Below are positions 52,473 to 64,000 of a stretch of 64,000 nucleotides of DNA, piece by piece. Origin of the DNA: an uncultured bacterium (GTDB lineage Bacteria; Patescibacteriota; Patescibacteriia; UBA9570; XYC2-FULL-38-9); the NCBI GenBank assembly GCA_937996685.1, contig CALKUP010000002.1:23003-87002 (forward strand), given 5' to 3'. How positions within the stretch are numbered: the stretch's first letter is position 1; each line of letters starts with the position of its first letter. The position numbers and the translations under genes are program-made. A model generated the notes under the pieces. It had not been told where the DNA came from and did not search any database. It saw only the letters and a list, made by a program, of their open reading frames with translations.

Positions 52473-53723
52473 ATGTATTTTAGCAGACGCATATCAAGGC
52501 GTAGTATTGCAGTTGGGCATTCTCCGGATAACGGTTTTATTTTTTTGCTATTGAATGCTAGTATTAGCTCTATGACAAAACGAGATCGTGGATTTTTTGA
52601 AAACCGGCGCGAGGCACGTTTTCGTGTTGCAATAGAGAGTGAGGCTGAAAAACAGCGTTTTCATGACCCGCATCCGCGTCCAGAATTTTCATCTGATCGA
52701 GAAATTACTAATGAAGTTTTAGGAAGATATATACGATTTGCGCAGCGCTTAGGACAAATGGAAGATTGGTTACGGCGTCAATCCTTAGATCTATTGTCCA
52801 ATGATCGCATCATCGACATGATTCGTGAGTTGGATATTCCAGCAGGTGAAGGCAATGCTCGCGAACAAATTTTAGAATTTTGTCAGTGGTGGAATGAAGC
52901 TGCTAACCGAGCACTGAAGAAAGAGGGTGATGTCATGACACAAGAGGAGCTGATTGGCGACAAGTCTGTTGATGCTGAGGTATTAGCCGCCCGCTTTTTT
53001 CAACGGTACTTTCATGAGCAACCCGTGGGACGAGTTGAATATGAACGGAAAGGTTTTTTTCTTGTGTTGTACGTAAACGACAAGGCAGATTTTCAAAAAA
53101 CTCTTCAGAAGTCGGAAAGTGGTGACACGGTCGGATTTTTTAAAGCACAGACGTGGGTCGCTGAAGTTCATCCGTTGCTCGATATAAACGAGTATCATGT
53201 TATGTATCAAGAAGAGAATGTTCCATTAATCGTCGTGCGTGCGGAGAAAGGAGCTCCAGAGGCAGAATTTACCTTTGAGCATGAATTACAACACGCGCTT
53301 AATTTTAGTGTGTTTAGGATTCCAAAAAATTACCAACGAGCCAGTGATGTCCATTCATCTCAAGAGGTAAGACGCTTGGTTATTACAGATGAGGTGATTT
53401 CTCATATTCGTAGCGGCGATCCTGAACATTTCCTTGAGCTATATACAGAAGCAGTATATAAAAGGGTATTAGAAAGTTGCGTTTCAGAAACAGATGGCAA
53501 TCCAATAAAAGGAAGTCGAGAAGATTGGTTACGTACACTTGATGACATTAGTACTGCAATGAAAGAATTACGTGGAATACTCGAACCGCGCCATCTCTAT
53601 ACTACGAGAGAGTACCGCTTGGTGGCATATATGCTTACTCAATTTCCCATTGAGCGTTTTGCTGAAGTCATTAGAAAATTTGGCAAGCGCATGGCCGACA
53701 CATTTGGCGAGCATCCTCAATAG
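52473..53723 (+). CDS. Hypothetical protein with HExxH motif (possible metalloprotease-like)
   Basis: FEHELQHALN contains an HExxH motif. The start is probably an internal Met (MTKRDRG...). Tentative. Confidence 0.35.
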   Translation: MYFSRRISRRSIAVGHSPDNGFIFLLLNASISSMTKRDRGFFENRREARFRVAIESEAEKQRFHDPHPRPEFSSDREITNEVLGRYIRFAQRLGQMEDWLRRQSLDLLSNDRIIDMIRELDIPAGEGNAREQILEFCQWWNEAANRALKKEGDVMTQEELIGDKSVDAEVLAARFFQRYFHEQPVGRVEYERKGFFLVLYVNDKADFQKTLQKSESGDTVGFFKAQTWVAEVHPLLDINEYHVMYQEENVPLIVVRAEKGAPEAEFTFEHELQHALNFSVFRIPKNYQRASDVHSSQEVRRLVITDEVISHIRSGDPEHFLELYTEAVYKRVLESCVSETDGNPIKGSREDWLRTLDDISTAMKELRGILEPRHLYTTREYRLVAYMLTQFPIERFAEVIRKFGKRMADTFGEHPQ

Positions 53724-54003: not shown

Positions 54004-55497
54004 TTATAGTTTTTTGAGAAACTGGTAAATCTCGACCATCGCCCATGTGTCCATTTTACAATAGGCGAGTAGATCTTGTGCAATTTGCTGCTTTTCCTCC
54101 TCGTCGATCGATTTTGTCATCATTCGCTCCCAACGCTCGCTGGCTTGGTCACCTTTACGGATGTTCAATTCTTTGTAGGTCAGACTTGGAATAAGGACTG
54201 GGAGTATATTTTTAATACTTGATTTGCCTTTGAAATCAGGATCGACGTAAAGGTTGTTTGTGAAAATTGTTTCAAGGTCAAACATGGTTTCGTTCATTTC
54301 CTCAAAGAATCGTACGTGTTCAGGATGTAGTTGCGCCAGCTTTCGGTTTTGCTTTTTTTCATAAGCCGCGTGCCATGAAACGGCAGTACCTTTTTCCGAC
54401 ATATCTGCAACAAGTTGCTCAACTAAGGGTTTTGTTACTTCAGATTGTTTTTCTGTGATAAGGAACTCCGTATGCTCGACTGATCCGTCTTCATGTAAAA
54501 TGTGGAGAGAGTATTGAAACGGAACATGCTCATATGGCCCAAAACCATCAAAAAGGGGAATAGCTGCAATAAAGCCTTCATAGTCCAAGAAGTAGAGGGG
54601 AAATTGAAGTTCATTGAACATTTCTCGAATTGCCAAGCCATCAACAAAAGGCCTCTTCTGAATGTATGAAGAGATTTGGAGCTGTTGTCGGTCATTGAGT
54701 TTTTCTTCAATGACTTCTTCGAGCGTAAATCTTCCTTCATCGACCCAGTTCATCAGTTTCTTTTTGCTGTTTCCAATGCGATAGAGGTCGTGGATTGAGT
54801 ATTCAGGAACGACGGGGTTTGAATAGGCAAAGCTTGAACAATGAGCACTACGACCCTTGTATACACAATCACAACCGCTTTGTTCGTCCATTGCGAGCCA
54901 AATTTTCATTTCTTCCATTTCTCCCAAAACCTCAACTTCTACGTCTCGGATTTCATTGCTTATGTCTTCTGTAATAAACAGTTGATCATAATCAAGCTCG
55001 CCGTGCTTTCGGTATTCAGAGTTGAGATGTATGACTCCTGTTTTGACAACTCTTGCGCCACATTTTTGAATGACTTGCTTCTGAAAAGCCAAGTCTCTTA
55101 CATGATTACCAACGCCTGTTTTCTTTACTTCATTTGTTGCTTTGACTTCATAGAGCTCCCATCCGTTCAATCTGTTATCCCAAACTAAAACATCTGCACG
55201 AATAAAGAAGTTTTCAAATACGAATGTCCCTTGAAAAATTACCCTTGCCTTATCCGCAATAAGAAGGTTTGTATCTTCTATTGCTGTTGAACCGTGCGTG
55301 CTCACGAGAACACCATCAGGAAAGAGTTTGCGAGCAGCTTCGTCGGCGGCGTTTCCTTCTTCGATGATTTTCTTCTCAAAGTCAGATAGCTCAAAATCCT
55401 CAAAGAGTTCAGGTTTGTATTTTTTGAGCCACAGGTTTTTTCGGCAAAAACTGTACTCAAGGTAGTCGGTTTTTGTGATTTGCATAAGCTTAGCCAA
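54004..55497 (-). CDS. DUF2779-like two-domain nuclease (Cas4/RecB-like PD-(D/E)xK domain with Cys cluster plus C-terminal DEDDy-type exonuclease-like domain)
   Basis: N-terminal D...ELYEVKAT (PD-ExK-like) with Cys at SFCRK and a downstream CDCVYKGRSAHC cluster (Cas4-like C-x2-C-x5-C). The C-terminal region has YFLDYE (Exo I-like DxE) and YCKMD (Exo III YxxxD-like). Confidence 0.45.
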   Translation of the reverse strand: MAKLMQITKTDYLEYSFCRKNLWLKKYKPELFEDFELSDFEKKIIEEGNAADEAARKLFPDGVLVSTHGSTAIEDTNLLIADKARVIFQGTFVFENFFIRADVLVWDNRLNGWELYEVKATNEVKKTGVGNHVRDLAFQKQVIQKCGARVVKTGVIHLNSEYRKHGELDYDQLFITEDISNEIRDVEVEVLGEMEEMKIWLAMDEQSGCDCVYKGRSAHCSSFAYSNPVVPEYSIHDLYRIGNSKKKLMNWVDEGRFTLEEVIEEKLNDRQQLQISSYIQKRPFVDGLAIREMFNELQFPLYFLDYEGFIAAIPLFDGFGPYEHVPFQYSLHILHEDGSVEHTEFLITEKQSEVTKPLVEQLVADMSEKGTAVSWHAAYEKKQNRKLAQLHPEHVRFFEEMNETMFDLETIFTNNLYVDPDFKGKSSIKNILPVLIPSLTYKELNIRKGDQASERWERMMTKSIDEEEKQQIAQDLLAYCKMDTWAMVEIYQFLKKL

Positions 55498-55538: not shown

Positions 55539-56711
55539 ATGTTTATTAAAGACCCCGAAAAACATTTGTCAGATCAGGCTTTTTTCAGCTATATCAAGTT
55601 TTTTGACTATGTCGTTTTGAAAAAAGATATTGATAATTATGACGATGATGGAGCATTTAGTATGCGTGATGTCAGCTTAGGTGGTGAGGATCAGGCAATG
55701 GTTTTTAACCGTATCTTGGACGGGGCAATAGCTGTACAGGCATCAGTGATTGCCAAGAAAGGTTATCGTTTTGATGATCAGATGAAGGAAACAAAGGAGG
55801 GGCTAAATGAGAAAGGTACAGATAGTGAAAAAAAGCGTATCTCAAAACTGATCGCATCCATAGAACGTGGAAAGGCTATAACAATCCAAGATGCGGCTGC
55901 ATTGTCATGGTTTTGGTTTGAAGTATACGATAGCATTCGTTTTACTCCTGAGTTGTGCAAAGTAAGCCCTGAAGTCAAAGACAATTTACAATCTGCTATT
56001 GAAGGTTACTTAGATGATTTCATCAATGATAAACTTTCAATTTCAAAAAAGAATTATTATCGGTTTGAGCGTCAAAAAGCCATTTTGATTAAACTGATAG
56101 AAGAAGATAATAAAATTGCAAAGTATGGCAATAATTTTATCATTCGCGAAAAAATAGGCCGTGATGGCTCACTTGAGCGAGCGCCTGATTTTTGCATTGT
56201 TCAAACGGTTTACGCTTTGCAGAAATTAGGATATTTGAAAGTCATGAACGTCTGGGAGGAAAGACAATATAAAGACAATGCCTATGACGATTTGGTTCCC
56301 TTTGTGAACGTCAACATTCTGCTTGATGAAATGTTTATTGAGGAAATCAATAATAGCTATAAGAAAGGAAACCCAAAAAACGTATTTGAAAAATTTGATG
56401 AAAAGCGTGGGGTCTTATTTTTTGCAGGGAAGGAAATTACCATTTCAAAGAAAGGGAAAGAAACGGATGCGATTTTATTGATAAAGACACTCCTTAAAAA
56501 AGAACCGCAAACGTGGAAGTACAACGATGAAATTTTAGAAGATTGGGGATATACGGAAGATGACATGGAAAGGCTTCCGAAGAACAAGGTATATTTTGCT
56601 GCTCAAAAAGCAAATCAGGCGATTGCTTTGGTGGCTCAAATTGATGATTTTATTGAATGTAATACGACAAAAGCGCGTATAAACCCGAAATACATAAAAG
56701 TTGATGGATAA
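55539..56711 (+). CDS. Hypothetical protein (island cargo, unknown function)
   Basis: 390-aa ORF, AT-rich codon usage like the rest of the island. No recognisable motifs. Confidence 0.4.
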   Translation: MFIKDPEKHLSDQAFFSYIKFFDYVVLKKDIDNYDDDGAFSMRDVSLGGEDQAMVFNRILDGAIAVQASVIAKKGYRFDDQMKETKEGLNEKGTDSEKKRISKLIASIERGKAITIQDAAALSWFWFEVYDSIRFTPELCKVSPEVKDNLQSAIEGYLDDFINDKLSISKKNYYRFERQKAILIKLIEEDNKIAKYGNNFIIREKIGRDGSLERAPDFCIVQTVYALQKLGYLKVMNVWEERQYKDNAYDDLVPFVNVNILLDEMFIEEINNSYKKGNPKNVFEKFDEKRGVLFFAGKEITISKKGKETDAILLIKTLLKKEPQTWKYNDEILEDWGYTEDDMERLPKNKVYFAAQKANQAIALVAQIDDFIECNTTKARINPKYIKVDG

Positions 56712-56932
56712 TTGATCAATTTTCGGCAACATTTACAAATACCCTTTCATTTAGTCTGAGGCTACAACCTCAGATTTTATGATTAGCAAACAAGAAGCCA
56801 AAATCAATCAGCTGCAAGATGCGGGCCATGAAATGGTCGATCAGGGCACGCTTTTTGAGTTTTTTGCATTGCTTCTCAAAGTCGATCAGAGGGTGAATCC
56901 ACATCTGTATAATCAACTTAAACAAGAAAATA

Positions 56933-58060
56933 ATGATTGATACAATTATCTTAATCATCCCAAGAGACAAGTTTATCTTTCTCGACCTTTCGAATGAAGG
57001 GGTGTCGAATTGGCATCTACAAAGCCACACCGACGCATACATGAAGTACATAAAAAATCCGAAGGTGCTCGCTAAGCGCACAGGCAAGTATTACCCACGC
57101 CTCACTGAGTATGTTCGCAAGTATGGTAACGATCGAAGTGTCAAAATTGAACTCTCGCTCCCAAAATTGATCTTTCTCAATAATCTTGATGAGCTGGAAG
57201 ACAAGGATTTCGATAGAGTTGTAGAAACACTACAGAGTCGTTTGAAGGAAATGGGAGTAGTAGTTGAACGTAAAGACATTGAAGTAGCAAAGGTCGGCAG
57301 CGTTCATTTTTCTAAAAACATTTTACTGCAAGATGGGTACACGTCGAACTATGTGATTTCTGAAATCGGCAAAATCGATTTACGAAAAACCTTTGACTTC
57401 GCCCGTGCGCGGTACATCAATGACGGTCAAAGTCTTTGTGCGCATACCACTTCACATGAGTTTGTTGTTTACGATAAAATCGCTGATCTACATAAAGGTC
57501 AAAAACGAGCGATTGATAAAGATCAAACTTCATTTCAACTCAGTTTATTCAAAGCCGAGAAAAAAGTATCGTACGAAGTCGTGCGTTTTGAAATTCGTTT
57601 GGCAAAGAAGCAAAAAATGAACAGCGTGCTCACAAAAATTGGTTATGAAAAAGACCCGATATTCAAAGATGTATTTAGTAGCGACCTGAGCATGAAAGTT
57701 GTGAGCCTGTATTGGGAGGGTGTTGTACAGACTAGAAATATCGGTCTATTTGCCACAGAAATGAGCAACAAGGAAAAATTGAGAAAAATTTACAAGCATT
57801 TTCCGAACATCAAACCTGCGCGTGCAATTTACCTTGTTGGCTTATTGAATCTTGCGCGAGAGCAGTACGGAATGGGAGAGTTACGTTCGATAGTAAGCGC
57901 AAAAAGTGGAGACAGAACGTGGTATCGAATAATGTCAGATTTTCGGAGTGTATCGGAGTTGATCGCACTACAAGATATTCGAGGCTGGGTGGGGCAAGTT
58001 AATTCTGCATTCACAAAATACAGACCACTTCGCCTGCAATTGCTAAGTAAAGAAAAGTAA
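56933..58060 (+). CDS. Hypothetical protein (island cargo, unknown function)
   Basis: 375-aa ORF. No catalytic motif identified (I looked for HUH/Rep motifs and found none). Confidence 0.4.
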   Translation: MIDTIILIIPRDKFIFLDLSNEGVSNWHLQSHTDAYMKYIKNPKVLAKRTGKYYPRLTEYVRKYGNDRSVKIELSLPKLIFLNNLDELEDKDFDRVVETLQSRLKEMGVVVERKDIEVAKVGSVHFSKNILLQDGYTSNYVISEIGKIDLRKTFDFARARYINDGQSLCAHTTSHEFVVYDKIADLHKGQKRAIDKDQTSFQLSLFKAEKKVSYEVVRFEIRLAKKQKMNSVLTKIGYEKDPIFKDVFSSDLSMKVVSLYWEGVVQTRNIGLFATEMSNKEKLRKIYKHFPNIKPARAIYLVGLLNLAREQYGMGELRSIVSAKSGDRTWYRIMSDFRSVSELIALQDIRGWVGQVNSAFTKYRPLRLQLLSKEK

Positions 58061-58069
58061 AGTATAATT

Positions 58070-58837
58070 TTGACTATGGTAAATACATTCAAAGGCGTGG
58101 CTTACGAGATTTTGAAAGAGGTGGGTAAGCCCCTTCACGCAGATGAGATTACGAAAATCGCTCTCGAGCGAGGGTGGTTAAACACAGCAGGAAAAACACC
58201 AGCGGCAACGATGAACGCTCAGCTTGTCGTTGATGTAAATAAAAATGGTGAAAAGTCTCTTTTTGTGAAGACTGGACCGAGTACATTTGCTCTCAATTCA
58301 GAAGTTCGATTAGCAAAGAAAACTAGCCTTACAGAAGAGCAGGAAGAAAAGGAGTATGCGGTTTCCAGTACCTTAATGTCGGTTCAAAAGGGAAACATCG
58401 TTGAGGCGCGTGTATCAGAATTAGTGTTATTATATGGAGCGAACTTGTCATGTTATCGGCCACTGACTGATGACGAAGGAATTGATCTGATTGTAAAAGA
58501 AAAAGGGAGTCTCAAATCCATTTACATTCAGATTAAAAGCAACTTTAGTGATGATTTTGGAAAACCGTTTGTGGCAACAGTTCGGAACAAGAGTGTAGTC
58601 GATAATTATGCTATGGCGTATGTGTTCTGTTTATTTGATACTGGAAAAGCTGATGTTCACGATTATATTTGGTTTGTGCCCGCCCCTGATTTTATTCGCA
58701 TGGCAGGTAAAGACAAGAATGATTTACTTGGTTTTGTGTCTGGCAAACAGAAGAAGAGTAGCAACAAGTGGGATGCTTTTATGATTGATAAAAGAGATTT
58801 AGCGAATAGAGTTATGGAGCAATTAAAACGCATATGA
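58070..58837 (+). CDS. HARE-HTH domain fused to a PD-(D/E)xK restriction-endonuclease-like domain
   Basis: N-terminal A.EIL..G.PL...EI......G........P.AT....L motif with ...FALN (HARE-HTH). C-terminal D-EGIDLIV-KEK PD-(D/E)xK core (Mrr-like). Confidence 0.5.
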   Translation: MTMVNTFKGVAYEILKEVGKPLHADEITKIALERGWLNTAGKTPAATMNAQLVVDVNKNGEKSLFVKTGPSTFALNSEVRLAKKTSLTEEQEEKEYAVSSTLMSVQKGNIVEARVSELVLLYGANLSCYRPLTDDEGIDLIVKEKGSLKSIYIQIKSNFSDDFGKPFVATVRNKSVVDNYAMAYVFCLFDTGKADVHDYIWFVPAPDFIRMAGKDKNDLLGFVSGKQKKSSNKWDAFMIDKRDLANRVMEQLKRI

Positions 58838-59010
58838 CAACAAAAGATTTTTACACCGCACAAGAACTCGCCGAAAAGTTGGAGGTAAATATCATGACGA
58901 TTTACCGATACATAAAGGCTGGAAGGCTTAGTGCTTACAAGATAGGGAAGGAGTTCCGAATAGCAAAAAAAGACTTTGATACATTTTTGAAAAAAGCAAG
59001 CACAAAGTGA
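58834..59010 (+). CDS. Excisionase/MerR-like HTH DNA-binding protein (58 aa)
   Basis: ATG overlaps the upstream stop (ATGA). TIYRYIKAGRLSAYKIGKEFRI matches the HTH_17/Xis-type helix-turn-helix. Too short to appear in the ORF track. Confidence 0.5.
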   Translation: MTTKDFYTAQELAEKLEVNIMTIYRYIKAGRLSAYKIGKEFRIAKKDFDTFLKKASTK

Positions 59011-59014
59011 ACGT

Positions 59015-60940
59015 ATGACAACAACACAACAAATTCTCAATAAAATTTTCAAAAACCCCGAGCAGGACCTTTTGATGTTTGATGACTTGTCCAAGATAGA
59101 CATCTACGAAAAAGATGAAGGAAAGTTCTACATCAAGGCTATTTCAAAAATGGATGAAGAGAAAAAAGTTTATGATGCTAAAACTGGAAAAGGCGCTCCT
59201 GAAGAAATTGTTCGACAGCTGTATCTTGTAAAACTCACAAAGCATTACAAGTACCCCAAAGACCTTATTGAGCTTGAAAAGCACGTCAACTTTGGACGTG
59301 AAATAAAGCGTGCAGACATTGTTGTGTACCGACCAGATGGCATTACACCTAAAATCATCATTGAAGTAAAAGCTCCTAATCAAGAGAATGATGTACAGCA
59401 ATTGAAGTCATATCTAAATGCTGAAGGCGCGCCTGTGGGTGTTGCGGTAAACGGCAAAACTCGCCTCATTCTTTATCGTCCATACCCGAAAGATTTTGAT
59501 GACACATTGGATGACATTCCAGCTTCAGATGAAGAGGTTGAAGACGTGCTTGCAAAACGAAAGACCCTGAACGACTTGAGAGAAGATGACCTCAAGGAAA
59601 CTATCAAAACTCTTGAAGAGCTTGTGCTTGCAAACTCAGGACACGATAGCTTTGAAGAAATCTTCAAGATCATATACGCCAAGCTTTTTGATGAAAAAGA
59701 AGCATTAAGCCGTCCAAATCAAGAGCTTCACTTCAGAAAAAGTCCGACAGGAAAACCCGAAGAAACAAAACGCATCATTGACGAACTTTTTGAAGAAGCA
59801 AAAGCAGAATGGTCTGATGTGTTTGAGCGTACTGATAGGATAAAGCTCAGTCCTGAGCATCTTTCTGTGTGTGTCGGGGAACTTCAAGATGTTCGATTGT
59901 TCGGGGCAAACCTGCGCATTATTGATGAAGCATTTGAGTATCTCTTGCCAGATGTTGCTAAAGGCAAGAAAGGTCAATACTTTACACCGCGCGTTGTCAT
60001 CGATATGTGTGTTCAGATGATGAACCCGCAAAAAAAAGAATACGTTATTGATACTGCTTGTGGGAGCGCTGGTTTTTTGGTGCATGCCATGCAGTATGTT
60101 TGGAAAAATTTACCCACTCTTGAAGCACGGAAAGAATATGCAAGTAGATATTTGTGGGGTGTAGATTTTGACGAGAAATCAACAAAAATTAGCCGCGCAA
60201 TTATGTTGATTGCGGGAGATGGCAAGAGTCATATTTTCAAGTCATCTTCATTAGATACCCGAGAGTGGCCTGAGCGTTTCAAAAGTGAATTACAAGATTT
60301 GAATCTTGTACAGGAGTTTGATGACTATGAGCAAAATCGAGAGAATCGAGCTACATTACAACACCTCGAATTTGATGTGCTTCTCGCTAATCCGCCATTC
60401 GCAGGCGAAATTAAAGAGAAGCATCTCTTGACTCAGTATGTTCTTGGTAAAAACAATAAAGGCAAGCTTCAAAATAAGGTAGAGCGACACTTGCTCTTCA
60501 TTGAACGCAACCTTGAGTTTGTAAAAGCAGGTGGTCGTTTAGCGGTTGTGTTGCCACAAGGCATCTTTAACAACACAAGCCAAGAGTATGTTCGCAAACA
60601 CATAATGCGGAAAGCGCGCATTCTTGCGGTTGTAGGGCTGCATGGAAACTCTTTTAAGCCTCACACAGGAACAAAGACATCAATCATCTTCTTGCAGAAG
60701 TGGGCAGATGAGGAGCTTGATGCAAGCGGTAGTCCGAAGGTTGCTGACTATCCGATTTTCTTTGCTACTCAAAAGCAATCGTTCAAAAATAACAGTGGCG
60801 ATTACATCTTTGAGAAAGACAAGGGCGGTCAAATTGTTAAAGACGACAACGGTAATCCTAAATATCTAAGTGACCTTGATGAAATCGCTGAAGCGTTTGT
60901 GGCTTGGGGCAAAGAGCAAGGTCTTAGCTTTCTGAAATAA
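59015..60940 (+). CDS. hsdM: Type I restriction-modification N6-adenine DNA methyltransferase subunit with N-terminal HsdR_N-like (PD-(D/E)xK-like) extension
   Basis: Motif IV NPPF (LANPPFAG), motif I region DTACGSAGFL, and the HsdM helical domain. The N-terminal ~170 aa contain D-IVVY...IIIEVK resembling the HsdR N-terminal nuclease-like domain. Confidence 0.7.
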   Translation: MTTTQQILNKIFKNPEQDLLMFDDLSKIDIYEKDEGKFYIKAISKMDEEKKVYDAKTGKGAPEEIVRQLYLVKLTKHYKYPKDLIELEKHVNFGREIKRADIVVYRPDGITPKIIIEVKAPNQENDVQQLKSYLNAEGAPVGVAVNGKTRLILYRPYPKDFDDTLDDIPASDEEVEDVLAKRKTLNDLREDDLKETIKTLEELVLANSGHDSFEEIFKIIYAKLFDEKEALSRPNQELHFRKSPTGKPEETKRIIDELFEEAKAEWSDVFERTDRIKLSPEHLSVCVGELQDVRLFGANLRIIDEAFEYLLPDVAKGKKGQYFTPRVVIDMCVQMMNPQKKEYVIDTACGSAGFLVHAMQYVWKNLPTLEARKEYASRYLWGVDFDEKSTKISRAIMLIAGDGKSHIFKSSSLDTREWPERFKSELQDLNLVQEFDDYEQNRENRATLQHLEFDVLLANPPFAGEIKEKHLLTQYVLGKNNKGKLQNKVERHLLFIERNLEFVKAGGRLAVVLPQGIFNNTSQEYVRKHIMRKARILAVVGLHGNSFKPHTGTKTSIIFLQKWADEELDASGSPKVADYPIFFATQKQSFKNNSGDYIFEKDKGGQIVKDDNGNPKYLSDLDEIAEAFVAWGKEQGLSFLK

Positions 60941-60942
60941 CT

Positions 60943-62358
60943 ATGTCTTGGCAAACCATTGTAAAAGAAAATAAGCTCGCAGTAGCAGAAATACCTTTTG
61001 ATGAGGTATTGAATATCAATCGGCTTGATGCTGAGTATTTTGACCCTTTTTACCTTGAGCAAGACAGTGTACTCAATGGTAAAAATCTTGTTCCAATCAC
61101 GCAGTATATTGATATTTCAGACGGAAATCACTTGTCTATTACGGAACATTTTGTTGAAGAGGGAGGTGTTCCTTATTTTCGAGGACAAGACGTAAACAAC
61201 ATATTCCTCAACTCAGCGAGCCCGATGAGGATATCAGAAGAAATCTACAAAAAGGGTTGGATGAAGAGATCTCATTTTAAGGCTAATGATATTCTGCTTT
61301 CCATTGTAGGTACTATAGGCGGCTTATCCTTTGTCCCTGACGATATGGGTGAAGCATCAGGTAGTTGCAAAATAGCAATACTCAGACCAAAAGACACATC
61401 CTTTTCAAAGATTGTCATGGTCTTTCTGCTTGGAAAGTATGGTCAGTATCAACTAAAGAGAATGACCCGTGGTGCAGTGCAAATGGGTATCATTCTTGAA
61501 GATATACCTAAAATTAAAATCCCTAATTTTTCAGAAACAATTGCTTCAGAAGTAAGTCACTTGATTTCAAATGTATTTGAAAGCGAGACTCTGTCACGAA
61601 AACGTTACGAGGAAGCAGAGCAGATGCTTCTTAAAGAAATTAACCTTGAAGGCTACAAAGGAACTGAAGAAGCTGTATCGGTTCGAAACTTCAGTGAAGC
61701 ATTGTCTCATAATCGTTTTGATGCAGAGTATTGGCAGCCTGACTATGATGTCATTCTTGATACGCTCTCATCATATAAAAAAGGTGTCAGCACTATAGGT
61801 GATGAGTTCAAACAACTCAAAAACAATTTCAAGAAGGACAAGGAAAAAGAATACAGCTATATTGAGATTGGCGATGTTAATGTATCGACGGGTGAAGTGG
61901 ATAGAAACATAATCATCGGTGCTGAGTTGCCTGCAAACGCCAAAATCAAGCTTGGTAAGCGACAACTCATCACTTCAAAGGTCAGGCCAAATAGAGGTGC
62001 AACAGCTATACTTGATGATCACGAGGGTTATATCGGAAGTGGTGCATTTACCGTATTGACCGAGCAAGAAAACATCAATCTTGAAACGCTAATGGTGTTC
62101 CTGAAAATGCGACCTATCCGAGAGTTGCTTCTACGATACAACACGGGAACTTCATATCCCGTTATCACTGATGCTGATGTACTGAAGTTGCCAATACCTT
62201 TGATTGATAAAGTGGTTCAGAAGAAAATCAGCGAACTTGTAAGTGAGTCCGCTAAAGAGCGACAGGAAGCAAAGGCTTTACTCGAAAAGGCAAAGCGAGC
62301 TGTAGAAATCTTTGTTGAAAAGGATGAACAAAGCGCATTAAAATATCTTCAAGCATGA
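60943..62358 (+). CDS. hsdS: Type I restriction-modification specificity subunit (two target-recognition domains)
   Basis: Two TRD halves separated by conserved coiled-coil repeats. Immediately follows hsdM. Confidence 0.7.
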   Translation: MSWQTIVKENKLAVAEIPFDEVLNINRLDAEYFDPFYLEQDSVLNGKNLVPITQYIDISDGNHLSITEHFVEEGGVPYFRGQDVNNIFLNSASPMRISEEIYKKGWMKRSHFKANDILLSIVGTIGGLSFVPDDMGEASGSCKIAILRPKDTSFSKIVMVFLLGKYGQYQLKRMTRGAVQMGIILEDIPKIKIPNFSETIASEVSHLISNVFESETLSRKRYEEAEQMLLKEINLEGYKGTEEAVSVRNFSEALSHNRFDAEYWQPDYDVILDTLSSYKKGVSTIGDEFKQLKNNFKKDKEKEYSYIEIGDVNVSTGEVDRNIIIGAELPANAKIKLGKRQLITSKVRPNRGATAILDDHEGYIGSGAFTVLTEQENINLETLMVFLKMRPIRELLLRYNTGTSYPVITDADVLKLPIPLIDKVVQKKISELVSESAKERQEAKALLEKAKRAVEIFVEKDEQSALKYLQA

Positions 62359-63878
62359 AAGCAGTCATCCTAGCTCGAGTATCAACGGAAGAACAACGAG
62401 AAGCTGGAAACTCTTTGCCTGCACAGATTGCCCGTATCGAAAATTATTGCGATAAGAAAAACTTCATTGTAGTTGAGACTTTTAGTTTTGATGAAAGTGC
62501 ATATAAAACAAAGCGAGACGAGTTTGATCGTATTCTTGAATATCTCAAAAATACCAATGAAAAAATTGCGGTCTGTTTCGATAAAGTAGATCGTCTGTCA
62601 CGCAATCAATTTGATAAACGTGTTTCGTTGCTTTATGAAAAAGCGGTTGCAGGAGACATTGAATTGCATTTTATTTCAGATGGTCAGGTTATCAATGATC
62701 AAATGTCTGCTGTTGAGAAGTTTCAGTTTGGAATGAGTCTCGGTTTAGCAAAGTATTATTCAGACGCTATTTCTGACAATGTAAAACGTGCATATGAGCA
62801 AAAACGTCGAAAAGGTGAATGGATAGGCAAAGCTCCCATTGGCTATAAAAATGCTGTTGATCTAAAAGGAAATAAAACAATTGAAATTGATGTCATAGTC
62901 GCGCACTTACTTGCAAAAGTATTTGAGTTATATAGCACAGGTAATTATTCGTATGAGTCGATTATTGATGAGCTCACAAAGCAAGGATTAAAAACTCAAG
63001 GAGGTAAGCGAATGACCAAGAGTGTAATTGAGAAGATTATAAAGAATCCGTTTTATTGTGGCATCGCTAGTTCACCGACTCACGGACAGTATCCGCACAA
63101 GTATGAACAGTTGATTACAAAGGAGCTGTTTGATCGCTGTCAGGAGATCCGTTTGAAGAAGCGAAAATTTCCAAATAAAGAGAAATCGGAGAAGTATGTA
63201 TTTAAGGGATTGTTGCGCTGTCAAAATTGCGGCTGTGCCATAACGCCAGAAAAGAAAACGAAACCAAGTGGTAAAACCTACACCTATTATTCTTGCACGA
63301 ATGCGAAGAAGATATGCAAACGTGTGTATGTTTCCGAAACCGAGCTTCTAAGGCCCGTAGAAGCGATTTTAGAGCGTTTTGAGCGTATTCCTGTAGCCAC
63401 GCAAGATAAGATTGTTGAATCGCTCCGTAAGTCTTCTGAGGCAGAGGTTGAATTTCATAAGGCTCAAGTGCTACGCATCCGACAAGATCAAGATATGTAC
63501 ACACAGCGGAAAGATGCCTTGCTCGATCTTTTGCTTGATAAGAGTATTACCAAGGAACAGTATGACAAAAAATTGCAGGAATACAGCGACAAGCTGCAAT
63601 TGCTCAACATTGAATACGAAGAACATACAAAAGCGGACTGTGATTACCAAACCACAATAGCCACAGTGTTTTCTTTAGCTCGACGTGCAAAACAAATCTT
63701 TTATAGTTCTGAAATCAATGAGCAACGTGCGTTTATTCGATACTTACTTCAGAACCCGACTGTAAATGAAAAGAAGCTACATTTTACAGTAGCTTCTCCA
63801 TACAATTCTCTCCTCGAACTATCTGATAGTCCTTTTGTGCGGGAGCGACGAGACTCGAACTCGCGACCTCTGCCGTGA
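62355..63878 (+). CDS. Large serine recombinase (resolvase/invertase catalytic domain plus recombinase domain plus zinc ribbon)
   Basis: N-terminal AVILARVSTEEQ with catalytic Ser. A central recombinase domain. A Cys cluster CQNCGC...C. The 3' end runs about 39 nt into tRNA-Asp. Confidence 0.75.
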   Translation: MKAVILARVSTEEQREAGNSLPAQIARIENYCDKKNFIVVETFSFDESAYKTKRDEFDRILEYLKNTNEKIAVCFDKVDRLSRNQFDKRVSLLYEKAVAGDIELHFISDGQVINDQMSAVEKFQFGMSLGLAKYYSDAISDNVKRAYEQKRRKGEWIGKAPIGYKNAVDLKGNKTIEIDVIVAHLLAKVFELYSTGNYSYESIIDELTKQGLKTQGGKRMTKSVIEKIIKNPFYCGIASSPTHGQYPHKYEQLITKELFDRCQEIRLKKRKFPNKEKSEKYVFKGLLRCQNCGCAITPEKKTKPSGKTYTYYSCTNAKKICKRVYVSETELLRPVEAILERFERIPVATQDKIVESLRKSSEAEVEFHKAQVLRIRQDQDMYTQRKDALLDLLLDKSITKEQYDKKLQEYSDKLQLLNIEYEEHTKADCDYQTTIATVFSLARRAKQIFYSSEINEQRAFIRYLLQNPTVNEKKLHFTVASPYNSLLELSDSPFVRERRDSNSRPLP

Positions 63879-63913
63879 CAGGGCAGCGCTCTAACCAGCT
63901 GAGCTACGCCCCC
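63840..63913 (-). tRNA. tRNA-Asp (anticodon GUC)
   Basis: Reverse complement GGGGGCGTAGCTCAGCTGGTTAGAGCGCTGCCCTGTCACGGCAGAGGTCGCGAGTTCGAGTCTCGTCGCTCCCG; anticodon loop CTGTCAC. Confidence 0.8.
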
Positions 63914-64000
63914 GTATTGATTGCAATATACGATGAATTGCTCACGCAGTATATAAGAAAAAGAAAAATCTGTCCAGAGGGGCCTTGTTTCGGCGGTTTT

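What the first reader, a model, noticed from the sequence alone, without database searches (positions are those of the whole stretch)
58070..62358. Type I M+S pair without an HsdR gene; methylase carries an N-terminal HsdR_N-like nuclease-fold extension; adjacent HARE-HTH/PD-(D/E)xK endonuclease
hsdM is unusually long (641 aa), and its first ~170 residues contain a D-IVVY...IIIEVK arrangement resembling the N-terminal nuclease-like domain of HsdR. No helicase-type HsdR is present in the window. Instead a small Mrr-like PD-(D/E)xK endonuclease with a HARE-HTH sensor domain lies immediately upstream, separated only by a 58-aa Xis-like HTH gene. This may be an orphan M-S methylation system, a non-canonical restriction arrangement, or a methylation-dependent (type IV-like) restriction partner.
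Basis: partly seen in the sequence, partly recalled or inferred. Interest (0 to 1): 0.5.

Follow-up and report, generated by a model that had tools for sequence, protein, structure and literature searches.

The report
BcgI-type restriction enzyme mislabelled type I
The "type I methylase without HsdR" is most likely a complete two-gene restriction-modification system of the known BcgI/BsaXI (type IIB) design, in which the methylase carries its own nuclease, so it is a new member of a known kind.

Summary

In about 22 distinct loci, methylases carrying this domain are always followed by an S gene and never have a helicase-type R gene nearby. Five loci with ordinary-length methylases all have an HsdR homologue within 3 kb. 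Relatives of the nuclease-connector module also occur as single-chain nuclease-methylase-S fusions.

The pair is therefore best read as a BcgI-architecture (RM)2S restriction enzyme. It is not an orphan type I M+S, and it is not MADS, because the mandatory MAD6-8 genes were not detected.

The 255-aa HARE-HTH protein has a PD-QxK nuclease core. It is a separable module that sits beside type I, IIB-like, IIG-like, III and Dam-class systems. Published work already predicts that such fusions discriminate modified DNA. The whole set lies in a tRNA-Asp-integrated element with a serine integrase.

Limits: nothing was tested biochemically, and the DNA beyond position 64000 could not be checked.

The parts
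59015..60940 (+). RM subunit (641 aa): an N-terminal PD-(D/E)xK nuclease, a helical connector, a gamma-class N6-adenine methyltransferase and a C-terminal helix
59198..59521 (+). Nuclease domain of the RM subunit (aa 62-169) with catalytic tetrad E88, D101, E117, K119
   Evidence: The tetrad aligns with BsaXI E73/D90/E105/K107, whose alanine mutants lose cleavage (PMC11997821). Residues verified. Invariant in 32 close homologues and in 18 sequences down to 32% domain identity.
59921..60793 (+). N6-adenine methyltransferase domain (aa 303-593) with SAM-binding motif DTACGSAGF and catalytic NPPF (aa 459-462)
   Evidence: Pfam N6_Mtase and Eco57I. Both motifs are conserved in all 18 aligned relatives.
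60943..62358 (+). Specificity (S) subunit, 471 aa, with two target-recognition domains
   Evidence: Pfam Methylase_S. PADLOC Specificity_I models match in two stretches, for example aa 67-233 and aa 289-447. PDB HsdS hits cover aa 300-458 and aa 78-170. An S gene directly follows the RM gene in most relatives, and where one was detected the gap is -38 to +29 nt.
58834..59010 (+). 58-aa HTH_17/excisionase-family DNA-binding protein; probably a regulator of the downstream R-M genes or an excision factor
   Evidence: Pfam HTH_17 2.8e-13. NCBIfam excisionase domain 9.5e-14 and a weak MAD1 hit. PHROG excisionase/regulator families. Found directly upstream of the R-M genes in L001, L003 and L020, and in front of other R-M types in L015, L018 and L021-L023.
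58070..58837 (+). HARE-HTH winged helix (aa 6-76) plus a compact PD-QxK nuclease (invariant E112, D139, Q154, K156). Probable true start is the ATG at 58076. It is a separable companion module, not part of the RM-S enzyme.
62355..63878 (+). Large serine recombinase (507 aa), the integrase of the element that carries the R-M genes
   Evidence: Pfam Resolvase, Recombinase and Zn_ribbon_recom. PHROG integrase 1.6e-75. It overlaps the S gene by 4 nt.
63839..63913 (-). tRNA-Asp, the integration target. Its 3' end is overlapped by the last 40 nt of the recombinase ORF.
   Evidence: ARAGORN. The same geometry occurs with tRNA-Asn in L001 and tRNA-Glu in L012.
56933..58060 (+). 375-aa protein of unknown function; a backbone gene of the same element family
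   Evidence: Homologues sit directly upstream of the HTH/RM genes in L001/L002, and near HARE255 relatives in L014, L018, L022 and L036. No Pfam, NCBIfam, PADLOC or PHROG match.

Best explanation
Genes 59015-60940 and 60943-62358 encode a self-sufficient two-subunit restriction-modification enzyme of the BcgI/BsaXI (type IIB, "multimeric type IIG") design.

Proposed mechanism, inferred by analogy with BcgI and BsaXI: two copies of the 641-aa RM subunit bind one S subunit, giving (RM)2S. The two target-recognition domains of S read a bipartite DNA sequence. Each RM subunit's gamma-class domain methylates one adenine of the site using SAM, which marks host DNA as self. On unmethylated sites, the N-terminal PD-(D/E)xK domain (E88, D101, E117, K119) cuts DNA at a fixed short distance from the site. 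There is no ATP-driven translocation and no HsdR.

What is shown here: the domain architecture, the intact and conserved catalytic residues, the closest structural relative, the obligatory adjacent S gene, and the consistent absence of a motor subunit nearby.

What is inferred: the stoichiometry, cutting on both sides of the site, SAM dependence, and the recognition sequence.

The 58-aa HTH gene just upstream probably regulates the operon or element excision. The 255-aa HARE-HTH/PD-QxK nuclease is a separate endonuclease that is co-transcribed but dispensable. It is most likely a modification-discriminating (type IV-like) enzyme, with lower confidence of about 0.4. All of these genes are cargo of a tRNA-Asp-integrated element with a serine integrase.
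For: 1. Architecture: HSDR_N_2 followed by N6_Mtase, plus a C-terminal lone helix at aa 621-634 in the AF2 model. The BsaXI paper describes such a helical tail for most RM+S type IIB enzymes.

3. All four BsaXI residues whose alanine mutants abolish cleavage align with E88, D101, E117 and K119.

4. The tetrad is invariant in 32 homologues at 60-94% identity and in 18 sequences down to 32% domain identity. The nuclease domain is conserved as well as the methylase domain, 45-51% against 48-55%.

5. Comparative test: about 22 distinct loci hold a nuclease-bearing M homologue. None has an HsdR/Res homologue in the locus, which spans up to 10 kb per side where the contig allows. Five distinct loci hold M homologues of 464-508 aa without the domain, and all have an HsdR homologue within 3 kb.

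6. An S gene follows directly in most relatives.

7. The nuclease-connector module defines a family of 963 clusters at 50% identity. All ten members tested have HSDR_N_2 plus N6_Mtase with no helicase domain. Three of about 1130-1210 aa and one of 906 aa also carry Methylase_S in the same chain, which is the single-chain R-M-S architecture known from type IIB enzymes.

8. The L004/L005/L007 locus shows RM-S alone between housekeeping genes, so the pair functions as an independent unit.
Against: - Nothing was tested biochemically.
- Taken alone, the sequence alignment of the nuclease domain to BsaXI is weak (12 bits, domain E 0.59). The assignment rests on the coincidence of the catalytic residues and on the structural alignment.
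- PADLOC's REBASE-derived models label the family "Type I methyltransferase" (PDLC03034, E 1e-182), and public annotation says "type I restriction enzyme M protein".
- PADLOC type IIG models match only the methylase part. The family is therefore not close in sequence to the type IIG/IIB enzymes those models represent.
- Only up to 10 kb around each homologue was examined, and the window's own right flank beyond 64000 could not be checked. An unlinked hsdR cannot be excluded.
- The control group of plain M genes is small (5 distinct loci), and gene calling in the fetched loci was crude.
Confidence: 0.7

Rival explanations
1. It is an orphan or solitary type I M+S methylation system. The N-terminal nuclease-like domain would be inactive or used for something other than restriction, or the system would use an HsdR encoded elsewhere in the genome.
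For: Database labels call it a type I M subunit. The methylase core and the S subunit are type I-like. The rest of the genome and the flank beyond 64000 were not examined.
Against: The catalytic tetrad is invariant and the domain is conserved as well as the methylase domain. About 22 distinct loci have no HsdR nearby, whereas plain M homologues always have one within 3 kb. Relatives include single-chain nuclease-methylase-S fusions without any helicase. BsaXI, a proven nuclease, is the closest structure.
Confidence: 0.12
2. The 255-aa HARE-HTH/PD-QxK nuclease is the real restriction subunit of the M+S pair. It would act in trans on unmethylated DNA, making this a three-component system.
For: It is in the same tightly packed gene string. 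Relatives are adjacent to RM641-like plus S pairs in two gene orders: L006 and L020 upstream; L062, L076 and L093 downstream. Published comparative genomics says HARE-HTH-nuclease fusions serve as restriction enzymes in N6A-modifying R-M systems (PMC4738411). 63 of 77 relatives have a same-strand upstream neighbour within 30 nt.
Against: Of about 19 distinct loci found through the RM protein, only L006 carries it. The otherwise identical element in L001/L002 lacks it. Relatives that are 75-85% identical sit beside type IIG-like, type III and Dam-class systems, and more distant relatives (56-60% identical) beside classical type I systems that already have HsdR. Its specificity therefore cannot be matched to the neighbour's methylation. 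The RM protein has its own intact nuclease.
Confidence: 0.08
3. It is a reduced MADS (methylation-associated defence system), because the HTH, methylase and S proteins hit the MAD1, MAD2 and MAD5 models.
For: NCBIfam MAD2 289.7 bits, MAD5 118 bits and MAD1 34 bits. PADLOC mad1, mad2 and mad5 hits.
Against: All scores are far below the equivalog cut-offs of 720, 400 and 80. The MADS authors define MAD6-8 as mandatory and MAD1/2/5 as accessory precisely because these resemble ordinary R-M parts. No mad3, mad4 or mad6-8 hit was found in any neighbouring gene.
Confidence: 0.02

Closest known systems
BsaXI (type IIB; RM.BsaXI + S.BsaXI; PDB 8w0p)
   Same: It has an N-terminal PD-(D/E)xK nuclease with the same E-D-ExK tetrad, a helical connector, a gamma-class N6A methylase and a separate two-TRD S subunit, with no motor. 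It is the best structural and sequence match among solved structures.
   Different: Identity is only about 21-24%. BsaXI RM is 916 aa and has extra "knob" and "paddle" elements that contribute to cleavage. The 641-aa protein is too short to carry the paddle and ends in a single helix.
BcgI and BcgI-like RM+S enzymes (BaeI, CspCI and others)
   Same: Two genes, with an RM subunit of about 71.5 kDa against 641 aa here. They form a 2RM:1S assembly on a type I-like S subunit. The RM+S group is described as having an EcoKI-like methylase fold with a lone C-terminal helix. The AF2 model here has such a helix at aa 621-634.
   Different: No direct sequence comparison was possible because BcgI was not available in the tools. 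PADLOC type IIG models match only the methylase core, so this is a distinct sequence clade. S is 471 aa, the size of a type I S subunit, whereas the review says type IIB S subunits are generally smaller than type I ones.
Single-chain type IIB enzymes (AloI, CjeI, TstI; about 1250 aa)
   Same: Relatives of the nuclease-connector module of about 1130-1210 aa carry HSDR_N_2, N6_Mtase and Methylase_S in one chain. This matches the R~M~TRD~TRD layout in the review.
   Different: In the window, S is a separate gene.
Classical type I R-M (EcoKI, EcoR124I): HsdR2M2S
   Same: The methylase core, the S subunit and the likely M2S-like assembly.
   Different: There is no HsdR motor subunit. The nuclease domain that type I systems carry on HsdR is fused to M here.
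MADS (mad1-mad8, Pseudomonas aeruginosa)
   Same: The HTH-methylase-S trio resembles MAD1, MAD2 and MAD5. The MAD2 model aligns from aa 65, so it includes the nuclease-like region.
   Different: It lacks the mandatory MAD6-8 and also MAD3-4, and all scores are far below the cut-offs.
Mrr and other winged-helix-nuclease type IV enzymes; HARE-HTH-REase fusions described by Aravind and Iyer
   Same: The 255-aa protein has an N-terminal winged helix plus a C-terminal PD-QxK nuclease core, the Mrr-type motif. Its association with amino-methylase R-M systems is as published.
   Different: The Pfam Mrr_cat hit is below threshold (16.6 against 21 bits). The nearest folds are I-Ssp6803I, NhoI and Hjc, not a solved Mrr. 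No member of this family has been characterised, as far as the searched literature shows.

Membership tests
Type IIB / BcgI-like RM+S restriction-modification | One polypeptide carries both a PD-(D/E)xK endonuclease domain and a gamma-class N6-adenine methyltransferase | tested here: met
   HSDR_N_2 at aa 62-169 and N6_Mtase at aa 303-593. The full-length structural match to RM.BsaXI is the top hit.
Type IIB / BcgI-like RM+S restriction-modification | Intact nuclease catalytic residues equivalent to those proven in a characterised member | tested here: met
   E88, D101, E117 and K119 align with BsaXI E73, D90, E105 and K107. They are invariant across relatives.
Type IIB / BcgI-like RM+S restriction-modification | A separate type I-like S subunit with two target-recognition domains, encoded next to the RM gene | tested here: met
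   The 471-aa Methylase_S protein starts 2 nt downstream, and two TRD regions match. The adjacency is conserved.
Type IIB / BcgI-like RM+S restriction-modification | No ATP-dependent translocase (HsdR/Res) subunit | tested here: met
   None in the 64-kb window and none within the fetched flanks of about 22 distinct homologous loci. Whole genomes and the flank beyond 64000 were not examined.
Type IIB / BcgI-like RM+S restriction-modification | [quoted passage not shown] | not testable with these tools
   This needs purified enzyme and mapping of the cut sites.
Type IIB / BcgI-like RM+S restriction-modification | 2RM:1S stoichiometry | not tested
   No multimer prediction tool was available. The C-terminal helix (aa 621-634) is compatible with docking on the S coiled coil as described.
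Classical type I R-M | An HsdR subunit with a helicase/translocase motor, linked to hsdM and hsdS | tested here: not met
   No ResIII or SWI2/SNF2 gene other than Mfd in the window. None lies near nuclease-bearing homologues, whereas plain M homologues have one within 3 kb.
Classical type I R-M | NCBIfam hsdM equivalog score | tested here: not met
   TIGR00497 scores 33.5 bits against a cut-off of 242.75.
MADS | Presence of MAD6, MAD7 and MAD8, which are mandatory in the authors' model | tested here: not met
   No PADLOC mad3, mad4 or mad6-8 hit in the nine genes between 52.4 and 63.9 kb.
MADS | MAD1, MAD2 and MAD5 equivalog scores | tested here: not met
   34.3 against 80, 289.7 against 720 and 118 against 400 bits.
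Mrr-like type IV endonuclease (255-aa protein) | PD-QxK catalytic motif in a PD-(D/E)xK fold | tested here: met
Mrr-like type IV endonuclease (255-aa protein) | Pfam Mrr_cat membership | tested here: not met
   16.6 bits against a gathering score of 21. PDDEXK_5 scores 18.2 against 26.1. Some homologues do carry a precomputed PF11645 hit.
Mrr-like type IV endonuclease (255-aa protein) | Cleavage depends on modified DNA | not testable with these tools
   There are only predictions in the literature for HARE-HTH fusions.

The most novel reading that the evidence does not exclude
The 255-aa HARE-HTH/PD-QxK nuclease, often together with the 58-aa HTH, may be a universal operon-embedded accessory of amino-methyltransferase R-M systems of every type (I, IIB-like, IIG-like, III, Dam-class). 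For example, it could be a sensor-nuclease that reads the N6A/N4C modification state independently of sequence and adds a second layer to whichever R-M cargo occupies a swappable slot in serine-integrase, tRNA-targeting elements of Patescibacteria. In that reading the window shows a two-layer defence cassette and not two unrelated neighbours.
Probability: 0.15. Interest if true: 0.6.

Novelty: new member of a known kind. Interest (0 to 1): 0.3.

Why it matters
A sizeable family is routinely annotated as "type I restriction enzyme M protein" or "N-6 DNA methylase". It comprises 963 clusters at 50% identity for the nuclease-connector module, and the named homologues of the window protein come mostly from uncultivated Patescibacteria (CPR). 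These proteins are most likely complete, motor-less restriction enzymes of the BcgI type. [quoted passage not shown]

This matters in three ways:
- Defence-system censuses that count these genes as orphan methylases or incomplete type I systems would be corrected.
- It suggests that small-genome CPR bacteria favour compact two-gene R-M designs.
- It offers a pool of type IIB-like enzymes with S-subunit-defined, and therefore swappable, specificities. Such enzymes are useful for 2b-RAD-type methods.

It does not reveal a new mechanism.

Tried and rejected
- MADS membership: rejected.
- Classical type I with a nearby HsdR: rejected for the window and for all fetched loci.
- The 255-aa protein as a cognate type II nuclease of the neighbouring methylase: rejected, because near-identical copies accompany R-M systems of different type and specificity.
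- Serine recombinase as an hsdS-shuffling invertase: rejected. There is only one hsdS copy and no meaningful inverted repeats. The protein is a 507-aa integrase-type enzyme abutting a tRNA.
- Search for a duplicated tRNA-Asp 3' segment or att-like direct repeats to fix the left end of the island: nothing found. The left boundary remains approximate, at about 52-54 kb, based on the GC drop.
- Retrieving the native 241-kb contig to inspect DNA beyond 64000: failed. Two look-ups found nothing on record and the third returned only a 1.5-kb contig.
- PDB sequence search with the 255-aa family profile: no hit.
- AFDB fold library: unavailable.
- PHROG scan of the hypothetical island genes: no hits, so there is no evidence of a prophage.
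- Promoter and terminator scan: only consensus-level matches, including a promoter-like site at 58040-58068 just upstream of the 255-aa gene. This was not used as evidence.

Full report

Yes. The + strand carries a tight string of ORFs:
- 56933-58060 (375 aa)
- 58070-58837 (255 aa)
- 58834-59010 (58 aa)
- 59015-60940 (641 aa)
- 60943-62358 (471 aa)
- 62355-63878 (507 aa)

Junctions between them are 4-nt overlaps or gaps of 2-9 nt.

Pfam and NCBIfam results:
- 255-aa protein: HARE-HTH (E 9e-21, aa 6-76), plus sub-threshold PDDEXK_5 and Mrr_cat matches at aa 106-172.
- 58-aa protein: HTH_17 and the excisionase family.
- 641-aa protein: HSDR_N_2 (E 5.8e-22, aa 62-169) and N6_Mtase (E 5e-36, aa 303-593).
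- 471-aa protein: Methylase_S.
- 507-aa protein: a large serine recombinase.

No helicase-type HsdR is in the window. The 1013-aa helicase is Mfd/TRCF and the other large ORFs are housekeeping genes. No stop-to-stop segment of at least 80 aa matches genuine HsdR or Res proteins.

The 255-aa ORF probably starts at the ATG at 58076, giving 253 aa.

**2. What the methylase-S pair is**

The best match among all solved structures is the RM subunit of BsaXI, a type IIB enzyme:
- phmmer E 7.9e-28.
- Foldseek on an AF2 model of pLDDT 86 gives E 6.3e-26 over 683 columns. Type I M subunits score about 1e-17 over about 460 columns.

[quoted passage not shown] It states that these four residues are conserved across type IIB enzymes (PMC11997821). 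In the alignment these residues fall on E88, D101, E117 and K119 of the window protein (verified). Taken alone that domain alignment is weak (12 bits). The exact coincidence of all four residues and the structural alignment support it.

The tetrad is invariant in 32 homologues of 60-94% identity. It is also invariant in 18 sequences that reach down to 32% identity in this domain, together with the NPPF and SAM-binding motifs. The nuclease domain is conserved as well as the methylase domain, 45-51% against 48-55% in the viral-contig relatives. That is the pattern expected of a working nuclease, not a relic.

**3. Comparative genomics**

I collected loci through the RM protein from public assemblies, species-representative genomes and viral contigs. 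I collected further loci through the 255-aa protein.

In every locus where an M homologue carries the N-terminal domain (about 22 distinct loci), no homologue of HsdR or Res is present in the fetched DNA, which spans up to 10 kb per side where the contig allows. M homologues of ordinary length (464-508 aa, no such domain) occur in L013, L037/L038, L049, L053 and L075. All of these have an HsdR homologue within 3 kb.

An S gene follows the RM gene in most relatives, and where one was detected the gap is -38 to +29 nt. In L004/L005/L007 the RM-S pair stands alone between housekeeping genes.

An exhaustive search with only the first 300 residues (nuclease plus connector) finds 963 clusters at 50% identity with E <= 1e-3, and 314 with E <= 1e-10. 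Ten members of different lengths all have HSDR_N_2 plus N6_Mtase and no helicase. Three of about 1130-1210 aa and one of 906 aa also contain Methylase_S in the same chain. These are the single-chain R-M-S layouts that the Loenen review lists for AloI, CjeI, TstI and HaeIV (PMC3874165).

[quoted passage not shown] The BcgI A subunit is 71.5 kDa, close to the 641 aa here. The AF2 model ends in a lone helix at aa 621-634. The BsaXI paper reports such a helical tail for the RM+S group, where it packs against the conserved regions of S.

**4. Mechanism**

I therefore read the pair as an (RM)2S enzyme. S reads a bipartite site, each RM methylates one adenine, and the fused nuclease cuts unmethylated sites at a fixed distance without ATP or a motor subunit.

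Shown here: the architecture, the catalytic residues, the closest relatives and the absence of a motor subunit nearby. Inferred: the stoichiometry, two-sided cutting, SAM dependence and the recognition sequence. Confidence is about 0.7.

**5. Why it looked like type I**

PADLOC's REBASE-derived model PDLC03034 ("Type I methyltransferase") matches the full length at E 1e-182. Public records call the protein "type I restriction enzyme M protein" or "N-6 DNA methylase". The type I hsdM equivalog model scores only 33.5 bits against a cut-off of 242.75. The label is an annotation habit, not evidence.

**6. MADS**

NCBIfam and PADLOC give MAD1, MAD2 and MAD5 hits, all far below the cut-offs. The MADS authors made MAD6-8 mandatory and MAD1/2/5 accessory because these resemble ordinary R-M parts. 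No MAD3, MAD4 or MAD6-8 homologue is present. It is not MADS.

**7. The 255-aa protein**

Invariant E112, D139 and Q154-x-K156 form the Mrr-type PD-QxK motif. That name is used in PMC11037411.

It is not a dedicated partner of this methylase. L001/L002 carry the same element (375-aa gene, HTH, RM, S, recombinase) without it. Of about 19 distinct loci found through the RM protein, only L006 has it.

Among 66 loci of at least 4 kb found through its own relatives, 46-50 have R-M genes within four genes. Three of the remaining loci also turned out to be R-M-like. The partners are:
- N6_N4 methylases (34 loci)
- type III Mod/Res
- classical type I R-M-S with a true HsdR
- AlwI-type enzymes
- type IIG-like genes
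- twin Dam-class methylases
- RM641-like plus S pairs

63 of 77 relatives have a same-strand upstream neighbour within 30 nt, with a median gap of 3 nt. No ORF with C5-methylase motifs occurs in the 84 loci, whereas 48 loci have amino-methylase motif IV ORFs. This is a crude motif scan with no background.

This agrees with published comparative genomics. [quoted passage not shown] A modification-discriminating role has been proposed for such fusions (PMC10853773). Copies that are 75-85% identical accompany methylases of different type and specificity. The protein therefore cannot be a cognate nuclease blocked by its neighbour's methylation. An autonomous, modification-discriminating (type IV-like) nuclease is the best guess, at about 0.4. 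The tight operonic linkage remains unexplained.

**8. Context**

The genes are cargo of an integrated element. GC content drops from 0.44-0.50 to 0.38-0.43 after about 52 kb. The serine recombinase ORF runs 40 nt into the 3' end of tRNA-Asp. The same geometry recurs with tRNA-Asn in L001 and tRNA-Glu in L012.

The backbone is the 375-aa gene, the HARE-HTH nuclease and the HTH, followed by variable R-M cargo. The hypothetical genes have no phage-family matches.

The named close homologues are mostly from Patescibacteria/CPR, including Parcubacteria, Magasanikbacteria and Saccharibacteria. The window comes from a 241-kb MAG contig.

**9. Limits**

- There is no biochemistry.
- Flanks were limited to at most 10 kb.
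- The right flank beyond 64000 was not retrievable.
- Gene calling in the fetched loci was crude.
- The control set of plain M genes is small.
- There was no direct comparison with the BcgI sequence.

**10. Verdict**

Interest is 0.3.

Noticed in passing
window 62355-63913; L001 13350-14918; L012 4183-5654: The 3' end of a large serine recombinase ORF overlaps the 3' end of a tRNA gene on the opposite strand: tRNA-Asp in the window, tRNA-Asn in L001 and tRNA-Glu in L012. This suggests a family of tRNA-targeting integrative elements in Patescibacteria that use serine integrases. From my own knowledge, tRNA-targeting elements more usually use tyrosine integrases.
   Followed up: partly
window 56933-62358; L015, L018, L020-L023: A conserved front end (375-aa gene, HARE-HTH nuclease, 58-aa HTH) is followed by interchangeable R-M cargo: type IIB-like RM+S, type IIG-like plus an Eco57I-like methylase, type III Mod/Res, or two Dam-class methylases. 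This looks like a cargo slot in the element.
   Followed up: partly
window 54004-55497 (- strand); L015, L025, L043, L084: A 497-aa DUF2779 protein with RecB/Cas4-like N-terminal similarity recurs near HARE-HTH nuclease genes in 5 loci. Its function is unknown.
   Followed up: no
L012-L095 (84 loci): No ORF with C5-cytosine methylase motifs (PCQ...ENV) lies near any HARE-HTH nuclease relative, whereas 48 loci carry amino-methylase motif IV ORFs. This is a crude motif scan with no background frequency.
   Followed up: partly
L045-L048, L051, L055, L058, L079, L080, L090 (directly upstream of the HARE-HTH gene): In the relatives at 56-60% identity, a conserved 51-81 aa ORF with no Pfam hit (cluster C2, 12 loci) sits between a ResIII helicase gene and the HARE-HTH nuclease gene.
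   Followed up: no
window 52473-53723, 55539-56711, 56933-58060: Three island proteins of 416, 390 and 375 aa have no match in Pfam, PADLOC or PHROGs, and none of significance in NCBIfam (the 390-aa protein has only one very weak hit). The 375-aa protein is conserved in related elements.
   Followed up: partly
L096-L109 (IMG/VR contigs): Nuclease-bearing RM homologues at 38-47% identity, each followed by an S gene, occur on 14 contigs classified as viral. The module therefore also travels on phage-like or other mobile DNA.
   Followed up: no
window 58040-58068: A sigma-70-like promoter match (TTGCTA, 17-nt spacer, TATAAT; 10 of 12) lies just upstream of the HARE-HTH gene. A terminator-like hairpin at 56753-56776 follows the 390-aa gene. 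These are consensus matches only.
   Followed up: no
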